In this document: piece after piece, positions 626-40,442 of the stretch
Layout: each line of letters begins with the position of its first letter
Position numbering within the stretch: position 1 is the stretch's first letter
Position numbers and translations under genes: made by a program
DNA from: a virus
Lineage: Duplodnaviria; Caudoviricetes
Virus record (IMG/VR): IMGVR_UViG_3300005542_000003
Coordinates: 1-40,836 of that record
DNA length: 40,836 bases
Strand: one strand, 5' to 3'
The notes under the pieces: model-generated
The model's database searches: none
The model's input: the letters and a program-made list of their open reading frames with translations, nothing else
Told to the model about the DNA's origin: nothing

Positions 626-1900
626 ATGGCAATTGATATGTATGAAATGAAGGCGCTGGCGTCACGCATACGCGACCAAGTACCAAATATCGCTCCCGGC
701 GCTGTGATCTCTAGCTACACGCGCGATCTTCTAGAGCAATACGCCGGGTCCGCTGGCATGTCCCACCACGTTACCTTTAAAGCGTCTAATGCCGATTTGA
801 TCGGTCTGTATCTGGTAGGGCGCAAAACAGCCGATGGCGCGGTGCGTATGGCTGAGAAAATCACCGTACGCTTGAACGGACCTAGCCTGATAGAACCCGC
901 TCCGGTTCCCGCGCCTCCCCCGTACGTCAACGGTACGCCATCGATCCCGTTTGACGGTGTGACACACGCGCTACTATCGGAGACGATTGCAGCCCTAACG
1001 GCGGAAATGGGGCGTGGTGATCGCGCGACGCTAGAGGCGGTACAAGCTGACTTCGCGGCGCTTTCAGAGGGCCTTACTTCGCGCCTTCCGGGCATGATAC
1101 AGGAAGCTTTAAAGACAGTCACGCCAACGGTTCTCACGGTTCAAACCCCTAACTCGCCTCCCGTCTCTCTTGGCGTCGTACACCGTAAGACGGCGAAAAT
1201 CATAAAATGGCTGTCACTTGGCTCTAACGTGTATCTGCACGGTCCCGCCGGTTCCGGTAAGACGACAACGGCGATGAAATGCGCGGAAGCGTTCGGCCTG
1301 CCTTTCTATTGCGTGGCGAAGGTTGAGAATGAGCAAATGCTACTCGGCTATGAGGATATCAAGAGCGATCTAGTACGCACGCAATTCCGTGAAGCGTACG
1401 AGCATGGTGGCGTGTTCCTATTCGACGAAATGGACGCGTCAGGCTCTAGCGCCATCGTGGCGCTAAATATGGCGCTCGCTAACGGATACTGCCCATTTCC
1501 AGATGCGACCATTAAAATGCACAGCGACTTTAAATGCATTGGCGCTGGCAACACGACGCTTGGAGGGGCCACGTATCAGTATTCTGGCCGCAATCAGCTA
1601 GACGGCGCATCTATTGACCGCTTTGTGTTTGTAGAATTTGGGTACGACGAAGATTTAGAGCGCGCCATCGCCCCGGACGCCCAATGGTGCGCGTACGTGC
1701 AAGCGGCGCGTGCGGAAGCGGCGGTCATACTACCGGACAAGCTAATCACACCACGCGCAACGATCACTGGCGGTCATGCCATACTCGACGGTGGCCTTGA
1801 TCGTACGGAGATTGAGGATGCCACGGTTTACAAGGGGTGGGATATAGAGGATAGGAACACCGTTCATCGCGCCGCCATGGCGCGTTTGGCGAGGGGTTAA
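626..1900 (+). CDS. MoxR/CbbQ-like AAA+ ATPase
   Basis: Walker A GPAGSGKT, Walker B FLFDE, GAGNT sensor, LDGASIDRF arginine-finger region. Confidence 0.88.
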   Translation: MAIDMYEMKALASRIRDQVPNIAPGAVISSYTRDLLEQYAGSAGMSHHVTFKASNADLIGLYLVGRKTADGAVRMAEKITVRLNGPSLIEPAPVPAPPPYVNGTPSIPFDGVTHALLSETIAALTAEMGRGDRATLEAVQADFAALSEGLTSRLPGMIQEALKTVTPTVLTVQTPNSPPVSLGVVHRKTAKIIKWLSLGSNVYLHGPAGSGKTTTAMKCAEAFGLPFYCVAKVENEQMLLGYEDIKSDLVRTQFREAYEHGGVFLFDEMDASGSSAIVALNMALANGYCPFPDATIKMHSDFKCIGAGNTTLGGATYQYSGRNQLDGASIDRFVFVEFGYDEDLERAIAPDAQWCAYVQAARAEAAVILPDKLITPRATITGGHAILDGGLDRTEIEDATVYKGWDIEDRNTVHRAAMARLARG

Positions 1901-1904
1901 GACA

Positions 1905-2759
1905 ATGCAGGTACGTCTGAACAAGGAAGGCGCGAAGCCCACGGCGAGGTACTTTTTTGATAGCTTGCAAGAGGCGCAACGGTGGATAGAGGCGACGCCC
2001 CGTACGTGGCGAGAGGACGCGTCCAAGTCTAACAAAACGTCTCCTGATTGGGATCTGAATACGGATTACACCCAAGCCCTTGCGCTCGCCAGGGACGGCT
2101 GGCGCGAGGGCGCTGCAAAGGTAACAGGAGCTTTAAAGCGCATTCCCGTTAGATCAGCCGCCCCCGAGATACGCCATGATTTCTATGGCTATCGTCCTAA
2201 CGTAGCCCGCGCCATATCTGGTAGACCGGATGCCATGGTGCGGCGCGCGAATAATGCCGAAAGCAACGCGCGGCCTATCGTGACGCTTGTTGTGCCTATC
2301 AATGCGGGTTCCGGCGTACGTGCTTCCAGCATGTCCAACTTTGGTATCGCGGTCATGCACCACGTACGCCAGCTAGAGGCTAACAAGGTACGCGTGGAAA
2401 TCGTGATTTGCACAACAACGGAATTACATTCCGATGGCACGCGCCTATGCACCGCGATCCGGGTCAAGCGCGCAGAACAGCCTATGAACCTGGGGACGCT
2501 GGCGTTCGCCATAGGCCATCCCGCGATGTTCCGGCGGATCATATTCGCCATACGCGAGCGCACCGCAACAGAGAGCGATAGCTCATACGGTTTTAGCGTG
2601 TACACCGAACCTAGCGACATTGTTGGGTACAAGCCGGGAACGGTAATCATTAACGGTATGCGAGACGCCGATACCGTGGCGTCTACCCCGGCGAAGGCTT
2701 TAAAGTATGTAGAGGCGAAGATAGAAGCCGCCATGAAGGGAGGGGCGAAGGCGGCCTGA
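1905..2759 (+). CDS. vWA-like partner of the AAA+ ATPase
   Basis: Directly follows the AAA gene. Strand VTLVVPI precedes a degenerate MIDAS-like NAGSG, and HPAMFRR is typical of phage AAA-adjacent proteins. Confidence 0.6.
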   Translation: MQVRLNKEGAKPTARYFFDSLQEAQRWIEATPRTWREDASKSNKTSPDWDLNTDYTQALALARDGWREGAAKVTGALKRIPVRSAAPEIRHDFYGYRPNVARAISGRPDAMVRRANNAESNARPIVTLVVPINAGSGVRASSMSNFGIAVMHHVRQLEANKVRVEIVICTTTELHSDGTRLCTAIRVKRAEQPMNLGTLAFAIGHPAMFRRIIFAIRERTATESDSSYGFSVYTEPSDIVGYKPGTVIINGMRDADTVASTPAKALKYVEAKIEAAMKGGAKAA

Positions 2760-2766
2760 ATGCCGC

Positions 2767-2856
2767 CCCTAGGGCATGGGCCAGGGAGGCGCGCGTGGGG
2801 GGCGGTAGGGGTATAGCGCCCTTGCCATTCCCACCCGCCTAGCCCATGCCCTAGGG
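2767..2856. repeat. Long GC-rich hairpin / inverted repeat
   Basis: Perfect 15-bp arms ccctagggcatgggc (2767-2781) and gcccatgccctaggg (2842-2856), with further internal pairing. Confidence 0.85.
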
Positions 2857-3020
2857 CGAAAATCGGGCCATGACGGCCTGGGGTCCCTAGGGAGCGTTCA
2901 CATGCTAGGGTTGTTTGTCACGGTAGCGGGGTTTGGATTATACGCCAAGGGTAACTCGTACAGCATAGGACATAGGACATACGAAATGATTTTTGACGGC
3001 AACACGGAAAGGGACTACGC

Positions 3021-3260
3021 ATGAACGCGGCACAGAAAAAAGCTCTCACGAGTATCGTGAGCGACCTGGACGCCAGCAAGACGGCTCTAGAGGAGCTATA
3101 CGGCGAGCTACAGGGCGCTTACGACGATAAGTCTGAGAAATGGCAAGAGGGCGAGAAAGGTCAAGCGGCTAGCGGGTGTATCGAGACGCTTACGGAGGCG
3201 GCGTATACGTTGTACAACACGATACAGGACTTGGACGGCCTTACCAGTACCGACGACTAA
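3021..3260 (+). CDS. Hypothetical acidic helical protein
   Basis: SD-like aaaggga upstream; SEKWQEGEKG motif familiar from small phage proteins. Confidence 0.75.
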   Translation: MNAAQKKALTSIVSDLDASKTALEELYGELQGAYDDKSEKWQEGEKGQAASGCIETLTEAAYTLYNTIQDLDGLTSTDD

Positions 3261-3290
3261 CTCCAAGACATCGCGAATAACCCGCCCAAA

Positions 3291-3319
3291 AGGACGGAGC
3301 CGGAAACGGTGGCCGTCCT
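3291..3319 (+). other. Stem-loop with GAAA tetraloop
   Basis: aggacgg...gccg-GAAA-cggt...ccgtcct, intergenic, no U tract. Confidence 0.55.
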
Positions 3320-3355
3320 GAAGGCGTGCAAATCACTTTAAAGGACTTACCTTAC

Positions 3356-3640
3356 ATGACATACGTTATAGCAGTATACGAAATCAACCGCGCGTACGGC
3401 GGACCCGAGGAAGGCGGATGGTACTACGACACTGGCAAGCTAGTGCGGGTCCTGGGTACACGTTCGGGCGAGGAGGCTGCATACTCCCTAGCTAGTCGTC
3501 TCAACGGATGGATGGAACGTATGCAGCGCAACAAGCGGTCTATATCCTCCGTCCTGTATAGTGGAGGGTGCTATTCCGTGGAGGCTCATCTATACCTTCC
3601 GCCCGCGTGCTACCCGGAAACCAAGCCATACTATTCCTGA
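3356..3640 (+). CDS. Hypothetical phage protein (YGGPEEGGW motif)
   Basis: ATG 3356 preceded by aaagga; motif YGGPEEGGWYY. Confidence 0.75.
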   Translation: MTYVIAVYEINRAYGGPEEGGWYYDTGKLVRVLGTRSGEEAAYSLASRLNGWMERMQRNKRSISSVLYSGGCYSVEAHLYLPPACYPETKPYYS

Positions 3641-3651
3641 GGGGACCCGTG

Positions 3652-3840
3652 ATGACACACAAAGTACTGGTTTTCGCCATACAAGCTATAATGCTGGCGT
3701 TCGCGCTATGGATAACGTGGACGATACTAGCGTTCATAATATCCCTCATACCTAGACACGTTCTGGGGGTTATAGGGATTTCCATATCCGTAGCGAGCAT
3801 ATGTTCATTATGTAGCTGCTCGTGTAATTGCAAACACTAA
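3652..3840 (+). CDS. Small membrane protein with Cys-rich tail
   Basis: gagggga SD; two hydrophobic segments; ends ICSLCSCSCNCKH. Confidence 0.6.
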   Translation: MTHKVLVFAIQAIMLAFALWITWTILAFIISLIPRHVLGVIGISISVASICSLCSCSCNCKH

Positions 3841-4007
3841 TGCGCTACGCCCTATGTGTGCTCATACTGGCCTTAATCACCATCATAGCAGTAGCGCTGC
3901 TGTTGCAACTGTTTTCGCTCATATTCCATGGCGCGCTAGAGGTACTGATCATCACCCTTGGCGTCGCGCTTGGAGCGTACTGGATAAGCAAAGATAGAAA
4001 CCTTTAA
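3840..4007 (+). CDS. Small two-TM membrane protein (55 aa; not in ORF track)
   Basis: TAATG coupling to the previous ORF; MRYALCVLILALITIIAVALLLQLFSLIFHGALEVLIITLGVALGAYWISKDRNL. Confidence 0.6.
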   Translation: MRYALCVLILALITIIAVALLLQLFSLIFHGALEVLIITLGVALGAYWISKDRNL

Positions 4008-4019
4008 AGGATACCTCAC

Positions 4020-4067
4020 ATGAAAAAGCTTAATACAAAGTTAACCCTTGCCGACGTGGTTTGGTAA
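4020..4067 (+). CDS. 15-aa peptide MKKLNTKLTLADVVW
   Basis: aaagga SD about 8 nt upstream; fills the gap between ORFs. Confidence 0.35.
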   Translation: MKKLNTKLTLADVVW

Positions 4068-4071
4068 AGCT

Positions 4072-4206
4072 ATGGCTACGAACGCAATCGTAAACGCTAT
4101 GCTCGGGCTAATGCCCCCTGGCGAGCCGCTGGTACTGCCCGAAGATGGGACGGTCTGCGAGGATGAAGGTTGCCCGCATTTTGGTACTTTACATACGCAT
4201 ACTTAA
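4072..4206 (+). CDS. 44-aa putative metal-binding miniprotein
   Basis: Ends CEDEGCPHFGTLHTHT (C-x4-C-x-H-x4-H-x-H). Confidence 0.55.
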   Translation: MATNAIVNAMLGLMPPGEPLVLPEDGTVCEDEGCPHFGTLHTHT

Positions 4207-4220
4207 GGACCTTTAAAGAC

Positions 4221-4319
4221 ATGCGTAGGTGGAATACACTTCAACTTTCGGCGCTGCTCATATGCGGCTTCGTGGTGTTCATGCTAGGCGTCTACTTTAT
4301 GGTGGGCGCTCTGACATGA
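4221..4319 (+). CDS. 32-aa single-TM peptide
   Basis: MRRWNTLQLSALLICGFVVFMLGVYFMVGALT; ATGA overlap with the next ORF. Confidence 0.5.
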   Translation: MRRWNTLQLSALLICGFVVFMLGVYFMVGALT

Positions 4320-4429
4320 CCGCCCTAGAGGCCAGGAGACGCCAAATGCATTACCGGGCGGCACGGCGGCGATGGCTCTCGCTTATGGGCTTCCCAATCG
4401 ACCGGAAAACGACTAAGGTTTTTTCTTAA
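4316..4429 (+). CDS. 37-aa Arg-rich peptide
   Basis: ATGA coupling; MTALEARRRQMHYRAARRRW... Confidence 0.45.
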   Translation: MTALEARRRQMHYRAARRRWLSLMGFPIDRKTTKVFS

Positions 4430-4460
4430 GTTACCTTACCCTACAGGAGACATACTTTAA

Positions 4461-4919
4461 ATGACACGACAACCCAAGGGATTTAGTGTTCTAGAGCTAC
4501 CGGAAGATGAGCACGTATACACGTTTGTTTCCAATGACGGTACTGAGCCGACGCACATAGCGGCGACTACGCTTCGCCGCGCGCTGGAGATCATGAAATG
4601 GCCCATAATTAAATGCATGATCGGTGCGGAGCTTATTAAGTGCCTAGAACGCAATGACATATGCATAGAGCCTGAGCACGCCTTGGCGCTACCCGAGGAG
4701 GCTCTAGAGACGGCTATTATCGTATGCGAGTGGGGTACTGAGCACGTCATCGCGGATGGCTCACATAGGCTATGGCGGCGCTGGAAGCGTGGCGATGATC
4801 ACTTTAAAGGTTACACCGTCCCAGAGGCTGTCTGGCGTGAGTTCGCGATATACGACATTCCCGGAACCGGCGAGTATTGGGACAAGTTCAACCGTACAGC
4901 CAAGGTGCGAGGAGGATAG
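4461..4919 (+). CDS. ParB/Srx-like domain protein
   Basis: aggaga SD; VIADGSHRL matches the ParB-N DGxHR motif. Confidence 0.55.
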   Translation: MTRQPKGFSVLELPEDEHVYTFVSNDGTEPTHIAATTLRRALEIMKWPIIKCMIGAELIKCLERNDICIEPEHALALPEEALETAIIVCEWGTEHVIADGSHRLWRRWKRGDDHFKGYTVPEAVWREFAIYDIPGTGEYWDKFNRTAKVRGG

Positions 4920-4921
4920 CC

Positions 4922-5149
4922 ATGAAGTTCCCCAGGCCGCTGCCCGGTATGCCTAACGCCGTCGTGGCGTTGGCCGTAGTAGGACTAGTGTTGCTTGGGG
5001 TACTTCTGATCATGCACGGATCGAAGCTGGATAACGATCAAATGCTAATGGCTATTATAGCTGCGCTTGGAAACGTAGTGACAATATACGTTGGCTATGC
5101 TATAGGTCGTCACCATAAGCGTACCGGAGAAAATGAGCCCGATGCTTGA
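4922..5149 (+). CDS. Two-TM membrane protein (holin-like topology)
   Basis: gaggagga SD before ATG 4922; two hydrophobic helices and a charged C-terminal tail. Confidence 0.65.
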   Translation: MKFPRPLPGMPNAVVALAVVGLVLLGVLLIMHGSKLDNDQMLMAIIAALGNVVTIYVGYAIGRHHKRTGENEPDA

Positions 5150-5372
5150 TCCATGCGCCAACTGTAAGCGATGCGCCGCTGACCGTATGGTTGGCATAGT
5201 GCGTCGTGCGGACTGCCTCACGCTGTACCCGAACCTAACCAACATAGGCAACAGTCCAGGTGGATTTAAAGCTGCTATGTCATCGTGGGGTTGGAGCCTA
5301 TCTGAAAAGTACTTCTATGACCAACAAGTACTAGCAAATTACCCAAACCAAACCCTAGGAGACTTACTTTAA
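5133..5372 (+). CDS. Hypothetical protein with CxxCxxC
   Basis: ggaga SD; CANCKRC. Confidence 0.55.
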   Translation: MSPMLDPCANCKRCAADRMVGIVRRADCLTLYPNLTNIGNSPGGFKAAMSSWGWSLSEKYFYDQQVLANYPNQTLGDLL

Positions 5373-5374
5373 AT

Positions 5375-5914
5375 ATGAGCATCTTCCCCACACGCCCTGT
5401 GTACAAAACAAAAGCGCAATACTGCGCTGATCTAGTGCTCGCGTTCAACACCGCGACTAACCGCGTCAACTGGCGTGCGAAGATGGCGGGTACGCGCATT
5501 AACCCTGCGGTACACTTTACCTCGCGTAATTCCATGGTAGTAGTAGCGTATTTGGTGAACACCGAGAGTTTCACCATTACCTTTAAAAAGACCGCGTGCT
5601 CGTGGGGCGACTTCCTTGGTGCTGCCCAAAGGTCCTTAAACGTGGTGTTACTTAACCTGGAAGTGTCAGGTATGGGTTTTCACGCCCCACTGGACGACGC
5701 TAAGTTTCGTATCGAGTATAACCCGAAAACCAAAATAACGTCCATAGAGTTTATACTCTCGGAAGAGGAACAGAAGGCGCGTAGTTTCCTGCCCGCCATG
5801 GTGGGAGAGTACTACCCGCTGGACAACGAGGACCCAGACGACCCCGAGGAAGAATACTTTAAAGATGGTGATGAAGGGGTCGAAAATACTTCTGAAAACC
5901 CCCTTGACGTGTGA
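5375..5914 (+). CDS. Hypothetical protein with acidic C-terminus
   Basis: aggaga upstream; 179-aa ORF in operon context. Confidence 0.7.
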   Translation: MSIFPTRPVYKTKAQYCADLVLAFNTATNRVNWRAKMAGTRINPAVHFTSRNSMVVVAYLVNTESFTITFKKTACSWGDFLGAAQRSLNVVLLNLEVSGMGFHAPLDDAKFRIEYNPKTKITSIEFILSEEEQKARSFLPAMVGEYYPLDNEDPDDPEEEYFKDGDEGVENTSENPLDV

Positions 5915-5932
5915 GATACGAGGGGTTAAATA
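5904..5932 (+). promoter_or_regulatory. Putative sigma70-type promoter
   Basis: cccc-TTGACG-N17-TAAATA upstream of the 5988 gene; the same CCCCTTGAC occurs at 8476 and on the - strand at 38559. Confidence 0.5.
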
Positions 5933-5987
5933 TTCACTGTTCAACGCGCACAACGCGCTCACAAATCGCAATAAGGGACTAACCAAA

Positions 5988-6668
5988 ATGACTGATGAAA
6001 CCGCTACCTTGGCCGCCACGGCGACAGCTACTCCCGTTGCCGCCAGCGTTCTCGTGACCGAATACCCCAATATGACGGGGGAACGGTCGTTCGATTGCGC
6101 GACCATCCCTGCCAACGTGCGCCTGGACTTTCTCAAGGCCCATGTCCGCAGCTACATCGCGAACCGGCTAAACAGCCTTACCACGCGTCACCAAAAAGAC
6201 GCGGCGGTCATCGCCTGGAACGCGTACAACGAGGCCACGAAGGCCGATCCGCTCCAAAGCCTCGTGCCCAAGCCGACCGTTCCGCTGCCTGCTATGCCCG
6301 ACTACGACGAAGCGTACGGACGTGCCGTCGCTGATCTCGTGGCTGGCAAGGTGCGCCAAGTGTCGGACGAGCCGAAGCAACGCAAGACCAAAGACCCGCT
6401 TACGGCGGTCGTCACCGATGCGGTCATCCGCGAAGTGTACGAGAGCCGCAAGGCTGCCGACCCGAAGTACACGTTCATCAATGCTCGCGCCGAGGTTGGC
6501 GTGGACGGCATCGCGTACTTGAACAAGCTGATCGACGCCAAGGTCGCCCAAGGCGCGGATCGCGGCGAACTGGAGAAGATGCGCGAAACGCGGTACGTGG
6601 GACCGGCCAAGATGATGCTCGGCATCACCACGTCCAAGGCTACGGCGGCGCTTCCGTCCATCCTCTAA
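5988..6668 (+). CDS. Hypothetical protein, probably highly expressed (226 aa)
   Basis: aaggga SD before ATG 5988; strongly C/G-ending codons; own promoter and terminator. Confidence 0.85.
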   Translation: MTDETATLAATATATPVAASVLVTEYPNMTGERSFDCATIPANVRLDFLKAHVRSYIANRLNSLTTRHQKDAAVIAWNAYNEATKADPLQSLVPKPTVPLPAMPDYDEAYGRAVADLVAGKVRQVSDEPKQRKTKDPLTAVVTDAVIREVYESRKAADPKYTFINARAEVGVDGIAYLNKLIDAKVAQGADRGELEKMRETRYVGPAKMMLGITTSKATAALPSIL

Positions 6669-6681
6669 CGGGACGTACTTT

Positions 6682-6724
6682 AAAGCCCTCATGGTGTAAC
6701 AGCCGTGGGGGCTTTTCGGTGTTT
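6682..6724 (+). terminator. Intrinsic terminator
   Basis: 13-bp stem aaagccctcatgg/ccgtgggggcttt (two G-U pairs), 8-nt loop, T-rich tail. Confidence 0.75.
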
Positions 6725-6740
6725 ACTTTAAAGGTTACTC

Positions 6741-6920
6741 ATGAACGAAAACGAAGAACGCGCGTATTGGGCTGAGTACATACGTAAATCGCGAGCGGAG
6801 GCTTTGAAAGCCGAGAAAGACGCTAGGTGGTATCCGTGGCTCGCGCTGCTGCTAGCCGTAGTAGGGTCGGCTTGGGTTTCTGGCTTGATAATTTTCATGG
6901 CCCATGCGCTGCACATCTAA
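6741..6920 (+). CDS. Small C-terminally anchored membrane protein (59 aa; not in ORF track)
   Basis: aaagg SD; charged helix followed by RWYPWLALLLAVVGSAWVSGLIIF. Confidence 0.65.
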   Translation: MNENEERAYWAEYIRKSRAEALKAEKDARWYPWLALLLAVVGSAWVSGLIIFMAHALHI

Positions 6921-6948
6921 ATCAAACACTTTAAAGGATGCATATACC

Positions 6949-7185
6949 ATGCCTCGAAACTACGGCGGAAACGCACAGCAACCGCTAGTACAGGCGGCAC
7001 AAGATACGCTCAACCCGCATCGTCCGGTCATGGTGCGCTTCATAGTGCGTGACCCGGAGAACCCGGATATCGCCGTACATGACCGCACAGGGGATCACGC
7101 CGACCGCTTCTTCCGCGAGTGGCTGGATAAAACTATGTGGTGGGCGCTTCGCAACCAAAAGAGTGTCGCCATTTACCCAGAATAA
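6949..7185 (+). CDS. Hypothetical protein
   Basis: aaagga SD before ATG 6949. Confidence 0.65.
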   Translation: MPRNYGGNAQQPLVQAAQDTLNPHRPVMVRFIVRDPENPDIAVHDRTGDHADRFFREWLDKTMWWALRNQKSVAIYPE

Positions 7186-7209
7186 CTTTAAAGGTTTTAC
7201 CTTACCAAC

Positions 7210-7503
7210 ATGACATCACGTACAAACGAAAAGCCCTATGGGCTGGAAGAATACCTTAGAGAACAGAAGCGACTAGAGAACTGCCAGGACTTGCGTGACG
7301 ATACATGCTCAATTGTACTCAACGCGGGTAACATGCACGGTACTCTAGACAACACGCTGGAATACATACATGGGCATTCCGGTCCTCATCCAAGCACCAT
7401 CCGCAGATGGCTGAATAAGGAGGTAAACGCCCCACATATGGGGAAAATACGATCTACCTTGGAAATACTCGGGTACAGACTAAGCATCGAACCCAAAGGA
7501 TAA
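7210..7503 (+). CDS. HTH (XRE/Cro-like) DNA-binding protein
   Basis: SGPHPSTIRRWLNKEVNAPHMGKIRSTLEILGYRL. Confidence 0.6.
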   Translation: MTSRTNEKPYGLEEYLREQKRLENCQDLRDDTCSIVLNAGNMHGTLDNTLEYIHGHSGPHPSTIRRWLNKEVNAPHMGKIRSTLEILGYRLSIEPKG

Positions 7504-7526
7504 AACACTTTAAAGGAAACGACACC

Positions 7527-7868: not shown

Positions 7869-7916
7869 TGTAAGCCTACCATCACCTTACCGTAATTTAC
7901 TTTAAAGGATATCATA

Positions 7917-8303: not shown

Positions 8304-8479
8304 TAGGGCGCTTGACAAAGGGCGGATCGCAGCGATACACACCACTCGCTGGTGCTTGCCGCGCTCGCAACCATGACGCCCGTTGCCCCCCGGTTAGGGC
8401 GCGTCAGCGGTCTCTGCCCCGAGGCTGTCAGGGAGGCCCAAGGGTCTCCCTGTGGCCCCCGAGGGCTCCCCCAAGCCCC

Positions 8480-8508
8480 TTGACACACCTTAGCTTACAG
8501 TCCAGCCT
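8480..8508 (+). promoter_or_regulatory. Putative promoter of the replication operon
   Basis: aagcccc-TTGACA-N17-CAGCCT, mirrored by aagcccc-TTGACG-N17-GAGCCT before the late operon. Confidence 0.5.
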
Positions 8509-33326: not shown

Positions 33327-33328
33327 AT

Positions 33329-33844
33329 CTAAGTTCCTGCTGTTATGATACTGGAGATAGCAGCGTGTTCCGCTGCCTGTACAGTAGCTTTTTCTCGGTA
33401 AACGTTCTCTGGGAGGGCTTTAACCTCCTCAATATGGCGTTTGATGGCCTCGCCGACCCCGGTAATGGGGATATTTGGGCGAGGCGCAGGCATACGTTCG
33501 TTGCCTACTTCTATAACATCGTGTATCTTTAAATGTTGCCGATGCGCCGACCGGCTAGTGATAATACTATTATCAATCGGGGACTGATACTCGCCTATAT
33601 CACGTATGACGTGTGGACACGGTAAGGCGCTCTGTCGCGCATGGCCGCGATCATCCCAATATACGTAGCGGCGACCATCGTATCCGACGTATGTGTGAAT
33701 GGCAGCTACAATACCGTGCTCTACAGCATGAACATAAGTACGACGGCCTTGCCAACCGGCGGGGTACTCACGAATGCCGTAGCGGTCGTCCATTGCCCAT
33801 CCTCCGACCTCGTGCCCCGTAGGCCGCTTCCCCGAGTACGTCAA
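33329..33844 (-). CDS. Hypothetical head-module protein
   Basis: DIGEYQSPIDNSIITSRSAHRQHLK..EVGNE; ATGA overlap with the portal. Confidence 0.7.
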   Translation of the reverse strand: MTYSGKRPTGHEVGGWAMDDRYGIREYPAGWQGRRTYVHAVEHGIVAAIHTYVGYDGRRYVYWDDRGHARQSALPCPHVIRDIGEYQSPIDNSIITSRSAHRQHLKIHDVIEVGNERMPAPRPNIPITGVGEAIKRHIEEVKALPENVYREKATVQAAEHAAISSIITAGT

Positions 33845-36174
33845 GGCCCGTCATCGCCAGAAGGCCCCGTCGCCGCGCTAGGGCTGTCCGTGGCGGCCTC
33901 GGGAGCGCCGGACCCTCCCTCTCCCCCTTCCGGCGCTCCCTGCCCCTCCTGGGCCGCTTGGGCGGCATCCGCCTTGATCTGATCAGCCGCCATGGTCTCC
34001 TGAGTGTCCAATTTCGCGTACTCGATTTCTTCTTGACGTACGGCTTGATCCACTTCGGCTTGTACGCCCATTTCGGCGATAGCAGCTTCGTGCAGGGCGG
34101 TAAACTTTAAAGTATCCGCATTCTCACGAGCCACTTGATCGCCACGTAGATTAGATATGGCCTTCGCCGCAGATTCTTTATCGCGTATAGCAAGCTCTTG
34201 CTGGCGTAATTGCAGTTCGAGCATCTTCTCCGCATGGCGGTTTTGCTCGGCTATGGCCGCAGCGGCATTAGTCGCTTGCTGGTGCTGGTCACGTAGTTGC
34301 AACTCAGCTTGCTTCGTCTGGCTTTCGGACTGGATACGCGCTTGTTCCGTCTGTTGAGCCATTTGTGCAACTTGGAGCTGTACTTGAGCCTTCGCTTGGC
34401 TTCCGTCCTTATCCTGGTTTTGCGGCTGCATGGCATTATTTTGCAACGCCTGTTGTACTTTCTCAAATTCATCCTCGATTGGCCTGGATGACGGGAATGT
34501 ACGCACGACAAACATGAGCATAGCGCCGAGTAACGGTCCAAGCTCCGGTGTGGCAGTTGCAGCCGGTACTGCCTGCTGTAAGAACGCACCCGCAGCCGAC
34601 AGAAATGCCGTACGGTCGGCTCGCTCGCTAGCGTCGTCAGCTAGCAAAGTACTATCCGTCTCAATATCTATAGTGGAAGTACGACGTAGTTCTGATTTAA
34701 TAAGATCTGTAGCTACTTTAAATGTCTGTATGTTCTGCTGCATAGAGGGACTATTAGCCACTTCAACCGGATCAGGTATACCGATACCGGAGAAAATCGC
34801 TATAGTCATCGGATCACAGTGTTCCGATATTACCTCGCCAGCTATAGCTATCAGGTCCCTGGCAAAACGTTGTACTTCATTCTGCATCTGCTTGACGCGA
34901 GCACTCGACCAGTCGTTCTTGATGTTCTGTGCGCCAAGTGTTTCAGACGCCTTCGTTACGCCACGTTGTATGTCGGAAAAGCCGGTTATCTCGTATATTT
35001 CCGCCTTCGCAACCTCGCGAGCGTTCTGTAGTTGCGTGAGCGTTTGTACGATGGCATCCAGCGGCAACCACTCTACGGAGCCCTTAATACCGCCAGACTG
35101 AGCAAACGCCGCCCACGAGTCCACCGCAATCATGCGATTACCCGACGCGGGGTTAAGTAAGTCATTCAGCTTGGCTTGCGAGCCGTCAAACAGGCCAACG
35201 ACGCGTAAGGCTTCCCCCAGGAGCCTGATACGCTTGGTCATTATGTTAAGTGTCTCAGCTTGAGACTTATACTGCGAATAGAGCGACCGAGGTACGAAAG
35301 TACGAGTATTAGACACGGCCCTTATTGGGCGCGGGCAGGGATAAAACCCCTTTAGCTTTAAAGGATCTGGCTTTGTATCGAGCAAGTCAGCCGGGTAACT
35401 CTCGGCGTACCAATACACGGTCTTATCCGCGCAGTTCCATATCTCCCACGCTTCCGCCGTCTCTGACGGACTGTCCATGTCGCGTGTTTGTCCCTCACGA
35501 ACAGTGTAATTCAGCTTGTTGGCCTTCGTCGCGCCAAAACGCGCCGTAGCGTCGGCTTCAGTCAAGTACAGTCGTCGCGCAACCCACGGCGTTTCCTTCC
35601 ACGAACGCGATACGCCGCACAGAAAATCCTGCCAATACACGTACTCCATCTTGACCATTTCGTCAAGTAGTTCGACGGTCGGGTCGCCGTTCTCGTCCGG
35701 TAGCGGCTTGCCGTCCATACCTACGACGTTGCGGAACCGCGCCTCGTATCGTACCCATGCAGTACCCAGCCCAGGCAGCAAGTAATCCTCAACGACGTTA
35801 GTCATAAGTTCGTCGAAGTCCTCCTCCTTAACCACGTACTCCAAACAGCCCTCAAGTATCCTCGCAGCGAACCGCGCATTGTCCGTCGCCGTATCTGTGG
35901 ACCGCAGCACAACACGAGGCTTCGGCGTAGCCGCGTACAGATTGGGACGTATGGTCTCCGTAGACGAGTACAGAATGTTATACTTGTCTTTTGAATAATA
36001 ATCGTTACCATCAGACTTCTGCATCCTATACGAGTCGATCACTATGTCCCCGGCGTCCCAAAACGTACGAAACCGCTTGCGGGCTCTACCGATCTCGCCT
36101 GACCAGTAAGCCCTATCTGGCGTTTGCGTCGCCGCCGGTTCTTTCGCACCGTACTGCACTACGGTAGTGTTCAT
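33841..36174 (-). CDS. Portal protein (podovirus type, long coiled-coil barrel)
   Basis: Follows TerL; YNILYS, FYPCPRP, IYEITGFSDIQRG..ETLGAQ; start at ATG 36174 (gaggg SD). Confidence 0.9.
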   Translation of the reverse strand: MNTTVVQYGAKEPAATQTPDRAYWSGEIGRARKRFRTFWDAGDIVIDSYRMQKSDGNDYYSKDKYNILYSSTETIRPNLYAATPKPRVVLRSTDTATDNARFAARILEGCLEYVVKEEDFDELMTNVVEDYLLPGLGTAWVRYEARFRNVVGMDGKPLPDENGDPTVELLDEMVKMEYVYWQDFLCGVSRSWKETPWVARRLYLTEADATARFGATKANKLNYTVREGQTRDMDSPSETAEAWEIWNCADKTVYWYAESYPADLLDTKPDPLKLKGFYPCPRPIRAVSNTRTFVPRSLYSQYKSQAETLNIMTKRIRLLGEALRVVGLFDGSQAKLNDLLNPASGNRMIAVDSWAAFAQSGGIKGSVEWLPLDAIVQTLTQLQNAREVAKAEIYEITGFSDIQRGVTKASETLGAQNIKNDWSSARVKQMQNEVQRFARDLIAIAGEVISEHCDPMTIAIFSGIGIPDPVEVANSPSMQQNIQTFKVATDLIKSELRRTSTIDIETDSTLLADDASERADRTAFLSAAGAFLQQAVPAATATPELGPLLGAMLMFVVRTFPSSRPIEDEFEKVQQALQNNAMQPQNQDKDGSQAKAQVQLQVAQMAQQTEQARIQSESQTKQAELQLRDQHQQATNAAAAIAEQNRHAEKMLELQLRQQELAIRDKESAAKAISNLRGDQVARENADTLKFTALHEAAIAEMGVQAEVDQAVRQEEIEYAKLDTQETMAADQIKADAAQAAQEGQGAPEGGEGGSGAPEAATDSPSAATGPSGDDGP

Positions 36175-36184
36175 AACATCACCC

Positions 36185-37693
36185 TCACGCGTCCGCGTAC
36201 TCCTCGCGGGACTGCCATAGATCATTCATCGTGGCGTTCTGCAACAGCTTAAAGTCCGGCGTGGTGGGAGCCCTCGGCTTCACCCGACGCCACGGGCGGC
36301 TCATGAGGCCATACCGCAGCGTATCCGGCGCGTGGTCCTCGCCATCTGTGTTACAGTCCTCCAGATTGTTAAGGTCGTGCTGTAACGCCGGAAGCGTGCG
36401 TATCAAAGCAGCGCAGCCTTTAAAGCAGTACCACATCGGACGCCCAACGCCGTAGTTTATATTATTATCCCCCTCGATCCCGCACAGCCGGTCGCGTACC
36501 ATGTCCCACCCGGCAATGCGGTTGTTATCCGCCTTCCTGAACAGCACGCCGTCACGAGCCATGCGCTCACCGTGCGAAGGTCCTGACTGGCGTGAGAACG
36601 CGCTCGGGTCCAGTACACCGTACGTCGGCGTGTCACCCTTCTCGTATTTCAGTATCTCTGTCGCGATGCGGTTCGCAGGCCAGCGCAGCCCCACGTTCGG
36701 CGTGCCGTTCCAGCCATACAACTCCCTGTATGTAATTACAGCCCCGGCAGGTACTGAGCGCCTGTAGAACGTCAGAGGATCGCCGGGTAACTCGAACTCC
36801 TCACTCACGACAGCGTGCCAGTGTACGCAGAACGGTGTCGCCGAACCCCAGTCCATGCTTCTAAATCTCATCCAGTGAGCAGGCAATTTAAAAGGCTCAA
36901 GTACGTGGTGCTGTAGCGAGAACTCAGGGAAGTACGCGCCTGTAATCACCGACCAGTCGCCGTCCAGCCATGCGCGTACTAGGTCCGGCGAGCCGATCTC
37001 CCGCAGGCGGCTTATGTACCCAGGGTCGTTACGCAGCAGTATCTTGTTGTCGCGCACCTTGCTCGGTATGAACATGCGCGTCGTCGTGTACCCGTCCTCG
37101 TCTGTGTTCTCCAGCACCTCCATACCGAGTGGGCAGGGGTCGATGAAGTACGCCTTGACAGCGTGGTGCCCTACCCCGCCGGGGTTCGCGCTGCACCGAA
37201 TACGTTTGAACGTCACCCCGAGCGCACTGCGTAGACACGCCTTAAGCTTCTTATACGAGTTCAAGTCAGGCCAGTTCGTAAGCTCGTCCCAGCCGATCCA
37301 CGTATACTGGTGTCCCTGATACTTGTCGCAGTCAGACTCGGTATCTACGTGCCGCATCTTCAGCGTAGCACCAGACGGAAACACGAACGTCCGGTCGGCC
37401 ACCTTGTACGTCGCCCCGTAGGCCCGGTATATCTGCTTCGCGCGGGTAATAAGCTCCTCTAACTCGGGATGGGACCGGCGGAATATTATACCCCGCCACG
37501 CCTCCCCCATGTCTATGTCCTGGAGGAAGTCGCCGAGCAGGTAGTCGGACTTACCCCCACCACGAGCGCCACCGAACATAAGCTCCGTCACGAACTGCGC
37601 TGATACGGCGAGAGACTGTGGTCCAGGCTGCGGCTCCCACAGGTCGTCGGCTGTTACAGGACCTAATACAGGGGCGTCTGTAGTGCGTGCCAT
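36185..37693 (-). CDS. terL: Terminase large subunit
   Basis: PQPGPQ, GGARGGGKS, IGWDEL, SANPGG, SMDWG, EDHAPD. Confidence 0.96.
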   Translation of the reverse strand: MARTTDAPVLGPVTADDLWEPQPGPQSLAVSAQFVTELMFGGARGGGKSDYLLGDFLQDIDMGEAWRGIIFRRSHPELEELITRAKQIYRAYGATYKVADRTFVFPSGATLKMRHVDTESDCDKYQGHQYTWIGWDELTNWPDLNSYKKLKACLRSALGVTFKRIRCSANPGGVGHHAVKAYFIDPCPLGMEVLENTDEDGYTTTRMFIPSKVRDNKILLRNDPGYISRLREIGSPDLVRAWLDGDWSVITGAYFPEFSLQHHVLEPFKLPAHWMRFRSMDWGSATPFCVHWHAVVSEEFELPGDPLTFYRRSVPAGAVITYRELYGWNGTPNVGLRWPANRIATEILKYEKGDTPTYGVLDPSAFSRQSGPSHGERMARDGVLFRKADNNRIAGWDMVRDRLCGIEGDNNINYGVGRPMWYCFKGCAALIRTLPALQHDLNNLEDCNTDGEDHAPDTLRYGLMSRPWRRVKPRAPTTPDFKLLQNATMNDLWQSREEYADA

Positions 37694-37694
37694 G

Positions 37695-37796
37695 TTACCT
37701 CGGCATGACTAGCGCAAATACGAACTGCATAAGTACGATCGCCATTATGATCAAGTACACAAATAGAAATATGGCCAGTCCCGTACGTACCTTCAC
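37695..37796 (-). CDS. 33-aa single-TM peptide between terS and terL
   Basis: GTGA overlap with the terS stop; MKVRTGLAIFLFVYLIIMAIVLMQFVFALVMPR. Confidence 0.5.
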   Translation of the reverse strand: MKVRTGLAIFLFVYLIIMAIVLMQFVFALVMPR

Positions 37797-38332
37797 AGGT
37801 CGATGCCAGAGAACGGTGCGGGCATAAGCTCGTACTCAGCGTCTACGGCGTCAAGTACAGGAGCTTGCAACCGGGAGACAGGCCCCGCCGGCACGGTAGG
37901 CCCTGCGAGTGTCTGCTGCTTCATGAGTAGCCATTCCTCGTATGTCGTAGCACGAGGCATCAGGTTGGCTATGTTCACCGTTACCTGCGGTGAGGAACTA
38001 CCGTCGCTGTCTCTGGAAAACTCCGGTACTTTCGCTTTAAGTAGCGTCTGTAGTAGAGTGTCTGAGTACTCTAGTTGCGTATCGACCTTCTCGCCTTTGT
38101 AGTAGATACCCCTCTCGATGCCATATACGCCTCGTGTTATGGCCGCTGAGACTAGAGTTTGCGTACCTATCTCACATGCGTTTTTAATGCGTTCGTCTAC
38201 GTCTGGGTCGTCTTTACGCCATTGCTGAATGAACAACATGGATACGCCGCATTGCTTGGACGCTCGTAGCATGTCGCCACAGTTGTGTGTGAGGGCGTCG
38301 CATAGGGCCAGAAGAGTAGGCTCGTTCCTCAT
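37793..38332 (-). CDS. terS: Terminase small subunit
   Basis: N-terminal HTH (ASKQCGVS..WRKDDP), YSDTLLQTLLKA; upstream of terL. Confidence 0.85.
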   Translation of the reverse strand: MRNEPTLLALCDALTHNCGDMLRASKQCGVSMLFIQQWRKDDPDVDERIKNACEIGTQTLVSAAITRGVYGIERGIYYKGEKVDTQLEYSDTLLQTLLKAKVPEFSRDSDGSSSPQVTVNIANLMPRATTYEEWLLMKQQTLAGPTVPAGPVSRLQAPVLDAVDAEYELMPAPFSGIDL

Positions 38333-38481
38333 CTGTTATGCCTGTTGTATATTCTGTTGTACATATGGTGAGGTATGGTGCCATCAGGATCAGTCTGGCG
38401 TACTTCCTCAATTAGCCTCTTGATAGCCACTGAGGCCAGTACCGAACCTAACGGTAGCTCCGGGGGTGGCTTCGGCTGCAT
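38329..38481 (-). CDS. YhhA-like triceptide (cyclophane RiPP) precursor peptide, 50 aa
   Basis: MQPKPPPELPLGSVLASVAIKRLIEEVRQTDPDGTIPHHMYNRIYNRHNR; ATGA overlap with terS. Alternative GTG start at 38523. Confidence 0.7.
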   Translation of the reverse strand: MQPKPPPELPLGSVLASVAIKRLIEEVRQTDPDGTIPHHMYNRIYNRHNR

Positions 38482-38526
38482 CGGCGGTTCTCGCGGTGCT
38501 GGGGAGTGATATCGCGCTCGCACGCG

Positions 38527-38555
38527 AGGCTCTCTCGGTTTGCATAAGGCGTCAA
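38527..38555 (-). promoter_or_regulatory. Putative late-operon promoter
   Basis: aagcccc-TTGACG-N17-GAGCCT on the - strand. Confidence 0.5.
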
Positions 38556-38595
38556 GGGGCTTTGTGGAGCGGGGCTGGCGATTAATAATAGGTTA

Positions 38596-38654
38596 AAGTA
38601 TTATACCTTTTGTGATATATGTAAGTATTATACCTTCTGTATTATATGTAAGTA
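38596..38654. repeat. Tandem 27-bp imperfect repeat
   Basis: aagtattataccttttgtgatatatgt / aagtattataccttctgtattatatgt / aagta. Confidence 0.85.
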
Positions 38655-39056
38655 AATTACTTAGAGTACCTTTTAAAAATACTGGAAAATTTTGTGGGTT
38701 GGTAGCGTTTTTAATTACAGTATAGCCTGCCGATTGGGTACGTGGCAGCAAGTATTCGCAGAGTATATCTTTAGTATTCGCTGGACGAATTACTCCATGA
38801 ATACTTAGCGCATAAATATATGTAAAGTATATTAAGTAAAGTGGATCGCAAGTAATAAATACTTTAAAGCATGTAGTATATAAGTTACTCTTCTGCAAAC
38901 AATCCAAGTAACAAACCCGCATATGCACAAGCGTGCATGTAAGTATTTACATACTTAAGTGCGTTAAGTACTGAAGGAATGCTTTAAAGGCGCTTGTTAC
39001 TAAGTACTTATAGGCTTTAAAGCACGCGTATATACTTAATAAATTACTTTATGAAG

Positions 39057-39118
39057 ATTACTTTGCAGAATGTAATATAAAATACTGTCTTAAAGTAAAT
39101 TACTTTGCAGAATGTAAT
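39057..39118. repeat. 20-bp direct repeat attactttgcagaatgtaat, two copies
   Basis: Copies at 39057-39076 and 39099-39118. Confidence 0.9.
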
Positions 39119-39232
39119 GTATAATACTAATAAATTACTCAGAATTTGTGCGCTGGGTACGCGAGAAACGCCTATTCAGACCCTTTAAATCACCCAAGTA
39201 CTTCAAGCTCGTAGGGGCAATGTAGAAAGAGC

Positions 39233-39248
39233 TATATATATATATATA
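39233..39248. repeat. (TA)8 tract
   Basis: Read directly from the sequence. Confidence 0.9.
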
Positions 39249-39587
39249 CCAAACCCCTGATTGCTATACATACCCATCACCTAATCTATTTATATACTGT
39301 GGGTGGCCGTGTCACCTTGCGATCAGCCGAGAACGGTCAGAAATCATGCTCAAGCTTGATTCGCTATAGCAGTGTAGGGTAATTCTCATTTAGAGACACA
39401 AGCAAGACCCAAAACTATACAGTAATATCATGGCAAATTTATCAATGATTTCAATGGCTTGCCACATAGTTTCGTGGTCGGCTTGACAAGCCTAGCTCGT
39501 TTTGGCAAGTAAATTACAAAACTAAATCCATATCCCGCATCTACTATATAAAGCCCCTCCCTCAAACAATAAAAGGTACTTAATACA

Positions 39588-40442
39588 ATGTCCACAAAGG
39601 CCAACGAATCAGCGTACAACGTGCGTATTCGCAACGTACTTACGAAGCGAAATCTACCGGATGGCATAGTATATAAGCAAAAATATCAAATACACACGTA
39701 TGAGAAAGCGCCGAAACCTATAGTATTCTCAGTACCTTGGCCGTCTATGGCTGAGAACGACGAATACTCAAAGGTAATGAGCGCAAGCACAATACGTGTG
39801 AATGCTTACGTTACAGTGCAGTATAACACCGCCGGTAAAGAGTACAACCTGCTAACTATCAAGTATTCTCGTGGTACAGATACGCACGCGCTCGGCGTGG
39901 AGTTCTACTATATAGACACTATTACTTGCAGGCTGACAGAGCTATGGCACGTGCAAGGCGGTGATACTGTATACATGACATCTAGTAACTATGAGTGGAT
40001 GAGCAAAGTAATAGTATTCGTGGAGGAACAGGCGCGTAAGAAATACTTGGAATACTGTCTAAGTGGCGTGGAGAGGCACATAACGCATTGCCACTTCGTA
40101 CCGGATACAGTAGACGTGCTAGAGTACAACGTGATGATTGCTAATCAGTACAAAGCGGCAAAGCAACGTGCTGTAGAAACGAAACCCAGGAGACGATACC
40201 GAACAAAGGCGCGCATAGCGCAAGCTCAAGTAGACGGTACTCTAAGTGAATTAATGACCGCTCGTGGTCCTGCAATAAACTACGAAAGTACTTTAAAGGG
40301 TCTAATTAACTGGCACAAGAAAGCCCTAGAGCGAGGGGACACAAAACGGGCGGAAAGTATCTCACGTTGGATACACAGGGTTAAGAGTCAGATGGCGGAC
40401 AGCGAGAATAATAGCCAAAATACACTCCCGGACATACTTTGA
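39588..40442 (+). CDS. Hypothetical basic protein (first gene of the + arm)
   Basis: aaaggt SD; 284-aa ORF; no motif recognised. Confidence 0.75.
   Translation: MSTKANESAYNVRIRNVLTKRNLPDGIVYKQKYQIHTYEKAPKPIVFSVPWPSMAENDEYSKVMSASTIRVNAYVTVQYNTAGKEYNLLTIKYSRGTDTHALGVEFYYIDTITCRLTELWHVQGGDTVYMTSSNYEWMSKVIVFVEEQARKKYLEYCLSGVERHITHCHFVPDTVDVLEYNVMIANQYKAAKQRAVETKPRRRYRTKARIAQAQVDGTLSELMTARGPAINYESTLKGLINWHKKALERGDTKRAESISRWIHRVKSQMADSENNSQNTLPDIL

What the first reader, a model, noticed from the sequence alone, without database searches (positions are those of the whole stretch)
775..40298. Genome-wide highly iterated palindrome CTTTAAAG
Seen: I counted 43 perfect copies by eye: 775, 1107, 2131, 2698, 3336, 4002, 4211, 4802, 5857, 6678, 6726, 6929, 7186, 7508, 7900, 8164, 8946, 9662, 10797, 11748, 12102, 12969, 13737, 14390, 15527, 16141, 17466, 18665, 21689, 22659, 23882, 25494, 28539, 31182, 32340, 33147, 34105, 35356, 36418, 38862, 38982, 39015, 40291. 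Roughly 25-30 more TTTAAA cores occur, most keeping one flank. An independent-base model at about 50-55% GC predicts under 1 octamer and under 10 hexamers. Sites are spread about every 0.5-0.8 kb on both arms and sit inside genes in different frames (Phe-Lys, Leu(TTA)-Lys), which points to DNA-level selection. Inference: a lattice of protein-binding or modification sites, analogous to cyanobacterial HIP1. It could serve genome coating or protection, ejection or packaging, nicking, or titration of a host factor. No methyltransferase is recognisable in the genome.
Basis: partly seen in the sequence, partly recalled or inferred. Interest (0 to 1): 0.85.

Follow-up and report, generated by a model that had tools for sequence, protein, structure and literature searches.

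The report
Protease-like reader of phage DNA palindrome
This soil phage carries one eight-letter DNA palindrome 43 times, more evenly spaced than chance, and across unrelated phages the word's outer letters change in step with one amino acid of a small protease-like phage protein, so that protein likely docks on the sites and would shield the phage's DNA from host defence machines.

Summary
Real and selected. All 43 CTTTAAAG sites are exact (about 0.6 expected). The excess survives codon-preserving shuffles (30 vs 1.3), spacing is even (P=0.0002), and 14 of 14 close relatives share it.

The likely reader is the SprT-like zincin with a C-terminal Cys4 zinc-ribbon tail, whose gene crosses the circular junction (40761→570). 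The lead came from earlier scan notes, which found GTTTAAAC with this gene on other DNA; I retested it.

Added here is a residue–base code. In 155 distinct SprT loci, Arg at one tail position goes with G…C words (62 enriched, 0 C-type, 66 below threshold). Ala/Ser/Tyr/Phe goes with C…G words (19, 0 G-type; 6 other non-Arg loci neither). One origin of the C-type is rejected (AU p=0.006), and two unrelated phages share almost no other gene with the window. Controls: 0 of 65.

Function is untested. Best guess is a genome-wide docking lattice that shields invader DNA from host DNA-tracking defences, with autoregulation; the main rival is a repressor/silencer. I found nothing on it in print.

The parts
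775..40298 (.). 43 perfect CTTTAAAG sites at the coordinates given in the finding; 30 lie inside CDS, in the frames Phe-Lys and x-Leu(TTA)-Lys
1528..40706 (.). 31 further TTTAAA cores, mostly CTTTAAAT/ATTTAAAG (19) and CTTTAAAA/TTTTAAAG (7); part of the same lattice
40761..40836 (+). 5' end of the SprT-like gene (ATG at 40761); bases 40797-40836 repeat bases 1-40, so the frame continues at base 1
1..570 (+). Rest of the SprT-like gene (phrog_6361, weak Pfam SprT-like; 201 aa in full): the likely reader of the word
208..222 (+). HExxH zincin motif (HELIH), intact here and in 109 of 120 close homologs
406..525 (+). Basic linker plus Cys4 zinc-ribbon tail (beta hairpin and short helix in the model of the 79%-identical relative); predicted DNA-reading part
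424..426 (+). Specificity position (Ala154 of the full protein; Arg in proteins of phages with G...C words)
40699..40706 (.). CTTTAAAT site 55 bases before the SprT start codon; candidate autoregulatory site
3336..10804 (+). Early-arm copies that double as Shine-Dalgarno sequence (CTTTAAAGG[AT], 14-23 bases before a start): 3336, 6726, 6929, 7186, 7508, 7900, 10797

Best explanation
CTTTAAAG is a selected, evenly spread word in this phage's DNA and is likely the docking site of the phage's own SprT-like protein, whose zinc-ribbon tail is predicted to read it and which would act as a genome-wide shield against host machines that bind or travel along invader DNA. SHOWN: enrichment, selection, even spacing, co-occurrence with the gene, and covariation of one tail residue with the outer base pair in several lineages. 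INFERRED (about 0.9): the tail contacts the word directly, probably as a two-fold symmetric dimer, with Arg reading G and Ala/Ser/Tyr/Phe going with C. INFERRED (about 0.5): the gene opens the early arm, so the protein is made early and occupies a site every 0.5-1 kb. Any restriction motor, exonuclease-helicase or silencer moving along the genome then meets a bound protein within a short distance and is blocked or, where HExxH is intact, cleaved. The site before its own gene probably limits its synthesis.
For: Gene and word: the gene is in 4 of 4 complete word-rich relatives (6 of 14 records; the other 8 are 14-45% complete) and in 0 of 25 word-poor capsid relatives, 9 of them IMG/VR records at least 90% complete and 3 cultured phages. 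It is the only one of 46 window proteins with a hit in the fetched DNA of R5C, Pan1, Percival, Yang, 4A, ECO1230-10, Mica and Henoccus; in 7 of these 8 GTTTAAAC/GTGTAAAC or an overlapping 8-mer ranks first, and ECO1230-10 has 5 vs 1. Code: of 155 loci of at least 5 kb, Arg gives 62 G-type, 0 C-type, 66 neither (still 140 G words vs 18 expected); non-Arg gives 19 C-type, 0 G-type, 6 neither; 2 lack a tail; controls 0 of 65. The rule was noticed; the unrelated C-type cases came later: G040 33 and G041 21 C-words, G047 9 C/0 G, G050 28 C/0 G. G040 shares only this gene with the window, G041 also a weak helicase piece. The tree of the protease domain needs 5 changes; one clade is rejected, p-AU 0.006. 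Sister phages with Asn, Phe or Trp at the position carry ATTTAAAT, CATTAAAG and CATTAATA words; Arg-Tyr goes with GTGTACAC. A tail-only protein sits with 5 GTTTAAAC vs 0.02. Shield function: spacing is more even than random in 11 of 16 replicons; most sites lie in CDS and in both orientations; no integrase or repressor family hit in the window; 3 of 3 alphaproteobacterial plasmids fetched have the Arg protein and 5-6 G words vs 0.2-0.3; the protease domain's best structural matches are SPRTN and Wss1; ArdC, a DNA-binding zincin, counters a type I restriction system and does not need its catalytic residue (PMC7213743, passages).
Against: No binding, target or protection was measured. HExxH is lost in 11 of 120 close homologs and in three genomes that keep dense lattices (G005, G009, G038), so proteolysis cannot be essential. 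Some SprT homologs have no lattice: Dismas, Franklin22 and FP1 (divergent tails) and G048 despite an Arg. 66 of 128 Arg loci fall below the threshold. Spacing is not even in G013, G009, G039 and borderline in 4A and Mica. Starred branches force only 2 changes and one independent pair; many rows are near-copies. The reverse search (word first) gave 7 enriched loci; one is a known clade member and none shows the gene, though the five records searched are 9-72% complete. The SPRTN match is modest (Foldseek E 0.003; Z 8.1, rmsd 3.4, 97 aligned). Sites are enriched just upstream of the gene, which also fits a repressor.
Confidence: 0.5

Rival explanations
1. Same reader, but it is a repressor or silencer: it closes its own and other promoters and slows transcription at the intragenic sites, as stoperators do, giving immunity or timing control.
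For: A cognate site lies within 200 bp upstream of the gene in 26 of 62 Arg-type word-rich loci (7.8 expected) and 9 of 18 C-type loci (4.7 expected); in Yang, Mica, ECO1230-10 and L086 it abuts sigma-70-like hexamers by eye. Cluster AZ phages have no identified repressor, the SprT-like gene is named as a candidate, and the N-terminally truncated Liebe makes clear plaques while Maureen makes turbid ones (10.1101/2025.05.26.655371, passages). Intergenic sites exceed the intergenic share of DNA.
Against: Stoperators are asymmetric, oriented with transcription and intergenic (PMC9283540, passages). These words are palindromic or occur in both orientations (Yang 14:6, Henoccus 17:18) and mostly lie in CDS. 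The window has no integrase hit, and the lattice covers late structural genes evenly. Plasmids carry it. Mica, Arya and ECO1230-10 are annotated with separate HTH regulators. Liebe and Maureen differ at three other places too.
Confidence: 0.25
2. Same reader, but the lattice serves the phage's own DNA handling: compaction, genome entry, replication, repair of DNA-protein crosslinks or packaging.
For: Even spacing over all gene classes; SPRTN/Wss1-like fold; HIP1 is proposed to act in chromosome structure (PMC5861425, abstract).
Against: The module moves among podo-, sipho- and myoviruses and plasmids that share no replication or packaging gene with the window. Capsid relatives do without it. 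Mean spacing ranges from 0.4 to about 10 kb.
Confidence: 0.13
3. A host factor reads the word (nucleoid protein, methyltransferase or regulator), and the SprT-like gene is a passenger.
For: AT-rich words with a TpA step suit alphaproteobacterial silencers such as MucR (recalled), and GANTC depletion points to such a host. Gene and word are confounded within the window's own clade.
Against: Elements of Alphaproteobacteria carry G-type words when the protein has Arg (R5C, sphingomonad and Caulobacter plasmids), and G-type words span Actinobacteria, Beta- and Gammaproteobacteria. The word switches with one residue of the phage protein in separate lineages.
Confidence: 0.05
4. An RNA-level or translation signal (ribosome-binding enhancer, RNase site), or a codon or dipeptide artefact.
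For: 12 plus-strand sites read CTTTAAAGG[AT], 7 of them 14-23 bases before starts; CTTTAAAT is 12:5 on the coding strand.
Against: 30 of 43 perfect sites are inside CDS, in two frames, far above codon-preserving shuffles. Variant words in relatives (CATTAATA, GTGTACAC) do not end in a Shine-Dalgarno motif.
Confidence: 0.03
5. A biased mutational or repair process regenerates the word without selection.
For: 122 of 210 sites in aligned genes of five relatives are at positions where the window has none.
Against: 88 of 212 aligned window sites are at the same place in relatives, 88 of 111 where the amino acids allow. Synonymous identity is 237 of 375 at site codons vs 0.41-0.43 elsewhere. Spacing is under-dispersed and Phe-Lys is doubled.
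Confidence: 0.04

Closest known systems
Stoperators and immunity repressor of cluster A mycobacteriophages (L5, TipsytheTRex; PMC9283540, passages)
   Same: One phage protein with more than twenty sites across the genome, some of them in promoters.
   Different: Those are asymmetric 13-mers, oriented with transcription, intergenic, and read by an HTH monomer in temperate phages. Here the word is an 8-bp palindrome or quasi-palindrome, unoriented and mostly intragenic, the likely reader is a zincin with a zinc ribbon, and the module also occurs in an integrase-free phage and in plasmids.
HIP1 of cyanobacteria (PMC5861425, abstract; PMC4390886, search listing)
   Same: A selected, highly over-represented 8-bp palindrome inside and between genes, with non-random spacing.
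   Different: HIP1 is chromosomal, contains methyltransferase sites and has a 10-90 kb periodicity. Here there is no methyltransferase, the scale is 0.4-10 kb, and a candidate reader covaries with the word.
ArdC anti-restriction protein (PMC7213743, passages)
   Same: A DNA-binding domain plus a zincin domain on a mobile element; counters host restriction; catalytic residue dispensable.
   Different: [quoted passage not shown] Here a C-terminal Cys4 tail covaries with a dsDNA palindrome.
SPRTN/Wss1 DNA-dependent metalloproteases (PDB 6MDW/6MDX, 5XBN)
   Same: Best structural matches of the N-terminal domain; HExxH; a zinc-binding part follows the protease part.
   Different: They are eukaryotic crosslink-repair enzymes activated by DNA structure rather than sequence (partly recalled). 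The matches cover only residues 1-136; the tail was not matched.
'SprT-like protease' of cluster AZ/EH actinophages (10.1101/2025.05.26.655371, passages)
   Same: The same protein family (about 36% identity); a predicted C-terminal DNA-binding domain; proposed role in lysogeny.
   Different: The passages name no binding word (no TAAAC or TTTACAC in the main text; bioRxiv supplements not seen). The lattice and the residue-base code are not mentioned.

Membership tests
Stoperator system | Asymmetric sites oriented with transcription | tested here: not met
   The word is a palindrome; asymmetric variants occur in both orientations: Yang 14:6, Henoccus 17:18, window CTTTAAAT 12:5
Stoperator system | Sites in short intergenic gaps | tested here: not met
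   30 of 43 perfect and 53 of 74 core sites are in CDS; intergenic sites are over-represented but a minority
Stoperator system | HTH plus stoperator-domain repressor | tested here: not met
   The covarying protein models as a zincin plus zinc ribbon; no repressor family hit among 53 ORFs
Stoperator system | Represses transcription and confers immunity | not testable with these tools
   Needs reporters and lysogens; the only hint is plaque morphology
HIP1-type palindrome | Selected, many-fold over-represented palindrome in and between ORFs | tested here: met
HIP1-type palindrome | Linked to orphan methyltransferases of the same genome | tested here: not met
   No methyltransferase among 53 ORFs; the one PHROG methyltransferase hit is a 57-residue stretch of the SNF2 helicase. 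A host enzyme is not excluded.
HIP1-type palindrome | Cyanobacterial chromosome, 10-90 kb periodicity | tested here: not met
   40.8-kb phage record with mean gap 0.55-0.95 kb
SprT-like zincin (PF10263) | Profile match above the curated cut-off | tested here: inconclusive
   E 6e-5, 23.3 bits against a cut-off of 25.6; phrog_6361 E 6e-41
SprT-like zincin (PF10263) | HExxH plus third His on a minigluzincin/SPRTN-like fold | tested here: met
   HELIH and a conserved downstream His; model pLDDT 92, best matches SPRTN, abylysin, Wss1
SprT-like zincin (PF10263) | DNA-dependent proteolysis | not testable with these tools
   No assay; HExxH is missing in 11 of 120 homologs
ArdC | N-terminal ssDNA-binding domain before the MPTase domain | tested here: not met
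   The zincin domain is N-terminal and followed by a Cys4 tail; no ArdC family hit
ArdC | Anti-restriction activity | not testable with these tools
   Needs plating or conjugation on restricting hosts

The most novel reading that the evidence does not exclude
A mobile protein-plus-address module: phages and plasmids that acquire this zinc-ribbon zincin rewrite their whole genome with an evenly spaced 8-bp word, tether the protein there, and so block or cut host defence motors at fixed intervals. One or two residues set the address, so lineages switch to private words (GTTTAAAC, CTTTAAAG, ATTTAAAT, CATTAAAG, GTGTACAC). That would be a sequence-written self mark and a natural programmable DNA-binding domain of about 45 residues.
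Probability: 0.4. Interest if true: 0.92.

Novelty: categorically new. Interest (0 to 1): 0.82.

Why it matters
Highly iterated palindromes have been known for decades without an identified reader. Here a reader is named down to one residue, which makes the question testable with a single swap. The gene is in 164 phage and 74 plasmid records of the collections searched, including cultured, genetically tractable phages (Yang, Percival, Henoccus, R5C), so function can be tested now. It also bears on the missing repressor of cluster AZ phages. If the shield model holds, it is a counter-defence strategy written into the entire genome rather than into one inhibitor gene. Whatever the function, a small zinc ribbon with a simple residue-base code would be a new DNA-binding module.

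Tried and rejected
Searches for relatives with the polymerase and the AAA ATPase in IMG/VR found nothing.

The SprT alignment found nothing in GTDB genomes.

Fold of the tail alone had pLDDT 50 and was not searched. The Atlas gave only unnamed 87-91 aa clusters and small zinc-binding families for it; a PDB sequence search found nothing under E 0.08. The homodimer prediction gave no verdict.

The reverse test (word first) was weak: 80 of 123 loci were laid, 77 of them at least 4 kb, 7 enriched, none with the gene in the fetched stretch; five records of 9-72% completeness were searched with no match.

ORF 5988 had no PHROG or Atlas match and no significant Pfam match and was rejected as reader. 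ORFs 7210, 39588 and 4461 were rejected on distribution.

The promoter scan of 38300-40836 was at chance level. No RNA holder was listed; the one DNA run is a soil metagenome that may be the source.

The script stopped on an error and was completed; the regex residue calls of 71 were replaced by HMM columns in 73. The careful tree did not finish, so quick trees are reported. The independent-pairs test is circular because only enriched rows were kept, and is not used as support.

Literature searches that found no description of the word, the pairing or the code.


Full report
OBSERVATION. All 43 listed CTTTAAAG sites are exact, with 74 TTTAAA cores in all; an order-2 Markov model expects about 0.6 and 6. 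Shuffling synonymous codons across the 46 curated CDS gives 1.3 octamers against 30 observed and 8.1 hexamers against 53. Only CTTTAAAT (14 vs 1.0) and, weakly, CTTTAAAA (5 vs 1.6) share the excess among one-letter variants. The protein sequence also bends: Phe-Lys occurs 33 times vs 15.3. Cores are more evenly spaced than random (CV 0.67 vs 0.98, P=0.0002; perfect sites alone P=0.033). The site extends weakly, to a purine 5 bases left and a pyrimidine 5 bases right (50 of 60 vs 31.7).

THE GENOME. The first 40 bases equal the last 40, so this is a complete circular record. The left arm holds a family A polymerase, Enc34-type SSB, DUF2800 exonuclease, endonuclease, SNF2 helicase and primase-helicase; the right arm holds terminase, portal, capsid and tail genes. 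No integrase, repressor or methyltransferase gene was recognised among 53 ORFs. The nearest cultured capsids are 50-56% identical (ppBjS10J-1, Mx8). GANTC is depleted (16 vs about 97 in CDS), as are GGCGCC and GCCGGC; this suggests an alphaproteobacterial host through CcrM (recalled knowledge). No close prophage was found.

RELATIVES. 14 of 14 IMG/VR loci with 83-86% capsid identity carry 0.4-1.5 octamers per kb; the other 66 of 80 loci carry 0 or 1. In five near-complete relatives, 88 of 212 aligned window sites are at the same position, 88 of 111 where the amino acids permit. Synonymous identity is 237 of 375 at site codons vs 0.41-0.43 elsewhere, and 122 of their 210 sites are at other positions.

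An earlier scan note (e1-10032940) linked GTTTAAAC to a small zinc-protease-like gene. The window has such a gene across its junction (ATG 40761, stop 570), and I tested the link. It is present in 6 of 14 word-rich records, including all 4 complete ones, and in 0 of 25 word-poor records. Cultured phages of Alphaproteobacteria, Beta- and Gammaproteobacteria and Actinobacteria found by this protein share no other window protein in the DNA fetched (48-49 kb of the R5C, Pan1 and Henoccus records). In 7 of 8 of them GTTTAAAC/GTGTAAAC or an overlapping 8-mer ranks first, while ECO1230-10 has 5 vs 1 and Arya, fetched later, 7 vs 1. FP1, Dismas and Franklin22, whose tails diverge, have no lattice. Three plasmids (of 74 records hit) have the gene and 5-6 G-type words vs 0.2-0.3.

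THE CODE. At I saw that the residue three before the conserved Lys of the tail (T-R-M-L-K vs T-A-L-L-K) differs with the word. I then fetched about 160 more loci. From 217 loci with the gene, 186 distinct proteins remained, and 155 on loci of at least 5 kb were scored at Poisson P<1e-4 for G-type (GT[TG]TA[AC]AC) and C-type (CT[TG]TA[AC]AG) words; the word sets were fixed after seeing top-word lists. Arg: 62 G, 0 C, 66 neither (together 140 G words vs 18 expected, 15 C vs 23). Non-Arg: 19 C, 0 G, 6 neither. Two loci have no tail. Controls: 0 of 65 capsid-related loci. Three of the six exceptions are sister phages with their own words: Asn with ATTTAAAT, Phe with CATTAAAG, Trp with CATTAATA. 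Arg-Tyr goes with GTGTACAC (11 copies in G051). Outside the window's clade the C-type appears in L191/L196 (Ala), L204, L206 and L245 (Tyr). Whole records give 33, 28, 21 and 9 C-words, G047 and G050 have no G-word, and G040 shares only this gene with the window. A quick tree of the protease domain needs 5 changes, of which starred branches force 2; a single C-type clade is rejected (p-AU 0.006, 54 rows). A tail-only protein sits with 5 GTTTAAAC. Arg-guanine and Asn-adenine are the classic recognition pairs (established knowledge). I read this as direct readout by the tail, about 0.9. Limits: many rows are near-copies, G048 has Arg and no lattice, and the word-first search was inconclusive.

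STRUCTURE. The AlphaFold2 model of the 79%-identical relative has mean pLDDT 92: a zincin domain whose best matches are SPRTN, abylysin and Wss1 (Foldseek E 0.003; Z 8.1, rmsd 3.4, 97 aligned), then a basic linker, a beta hairpin (155-159, 166-170) and a short helix. The key residue 154 sits at the start of the first strand, and Lys157, Arg168 and Thr170 are invariant. The tail has no structural match yet. Dimer binding is inferred from the palindrome only.

FUNCTION. Spacing is more even than random in 11 of 16 replicons, including Yang (CV 0.44), Percival (0.42), Henoccus (0.53) and Pan1 (0.34), but not in G013, G009 or G039, and borderline in 4A and Mica. Most sites lie in CDS and in both orientations. 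That fits an action with a range along DNA better than promoter control. With the plasmid occurrence, the absence of an integrase here, the early position of the gene, and ArdC as a precedent for a DNA-binding zincin that counters type I restriction without needing catalysis (PMC7213743, passages), I favour a shield: bound protein blocks or cuts host motors and silencers (0.5). HExxH is kept in 109 of 120 homologs but lost in genomes that keep dense lattices, so occupancy is the likely core and proteolysis an addition. The repressor rival (0.25) rests on sites upstream of the gene (26 of 62 vs 7.8; 9 of 18 vs 4.7) and on the Liebe/Maureen plaque difference (10.1101/2025.05.26.655371, passages). 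It fails the stoperator hallmarks of asymmetry, orientation and intergenic position (PMC9283540, passages). The two readings can coexist as autoregulation plus a lattice. A jumbo-phage review suggests that SprT-like peptidases target host proteins (PMC7824862, passage). Copies that overlap ribosome-binding sites are probably cheap places to write the word (inference).

NOVELTY. Eight searches of the held library found no description of the word, the pairing or the code; subscription papers and bioRxiv supplements were not seen. This scan has noted the GTTTAAAC-SprT pairing many times on other DNA and CTTTAAAG once without a reader (e1-5960492). A look-up for the residue-base covariation returned nothing. 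The system works like stoperators in layout and like ArdC or SPRTN in parts, but fails defining features of stoperators, HIP1 and ArdC. Verdict: real, selected, reader identified by covariation, function open. Interest 0.82.

Noticed in passing
window 11286-11516 (+): Acb2/Tad1 hairpin domain (PF24729, E 4e-13), a likely anti-CBASS/Thoeris nucleotide sponge; no hit in 5 close relatives.
   Followed up: partly
window 626-2759 (+): CobS/MoxR-like AAA ATPase plus DUF7192 directly after the SprT-like gene; kept across the clade, but absent from unrelated SprT phages.
   Followed up: partly
window 5988-6668 (+): 226-aa orphan between a strong sigma-70-like promoter and a terminator hairpin flanked by two CTTTAAAG sites; conserved at 29-65% through the clade and its sisters; no family found.
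   Followed up: partly
window 38400-39590: AT-rich gene-poor stretch with a TA run and three AAGTAAATTAC copies (a fourth at 7892); GTAA[AT]TTAC clusters also in G005 (5) and L085 (7). Possibly an origin or a second binding motif.
   Followed up: partly
window 605, 3348, 4432, 7198: TACCTTAC motif shortly before early-gene starts; also seen upstream of SprT in G013.
   Followed up: no
whole window: Strong avoidance of GANTC and of most GC-rich 6-bp palindromes, and a second excess, AAGTAC/GTACTT (78 vs 36 in codon shuffles).
   Followed up: no
L433:4202, L434:2491, L435:4667: In alphaproteobacterial plasmids and in 58% of word-poor Arg loci one site lies inside the sprT gene itself; the plasmids have another site in traA.
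   Followed up: partly
L197, L201 (G051), L205: GTGTACAC lattices; the two loci with an intact tail have Tyr after the Arg, a possible second position of the code.
   Followed up: partly
window 39588-40442 (+): Orphan with a weak PADLOC JetD match (E 0.002, 60 residues), absent from relatives; probably chance.
   Followed up: no
L328/L329 (G042), L360 (G043): Viral fragments of 40-45% GC with 10-11 C-type words vs 1.3-1.9 expected and no SprT gene in the 72% and 36% complete records.
   Followed up: partly
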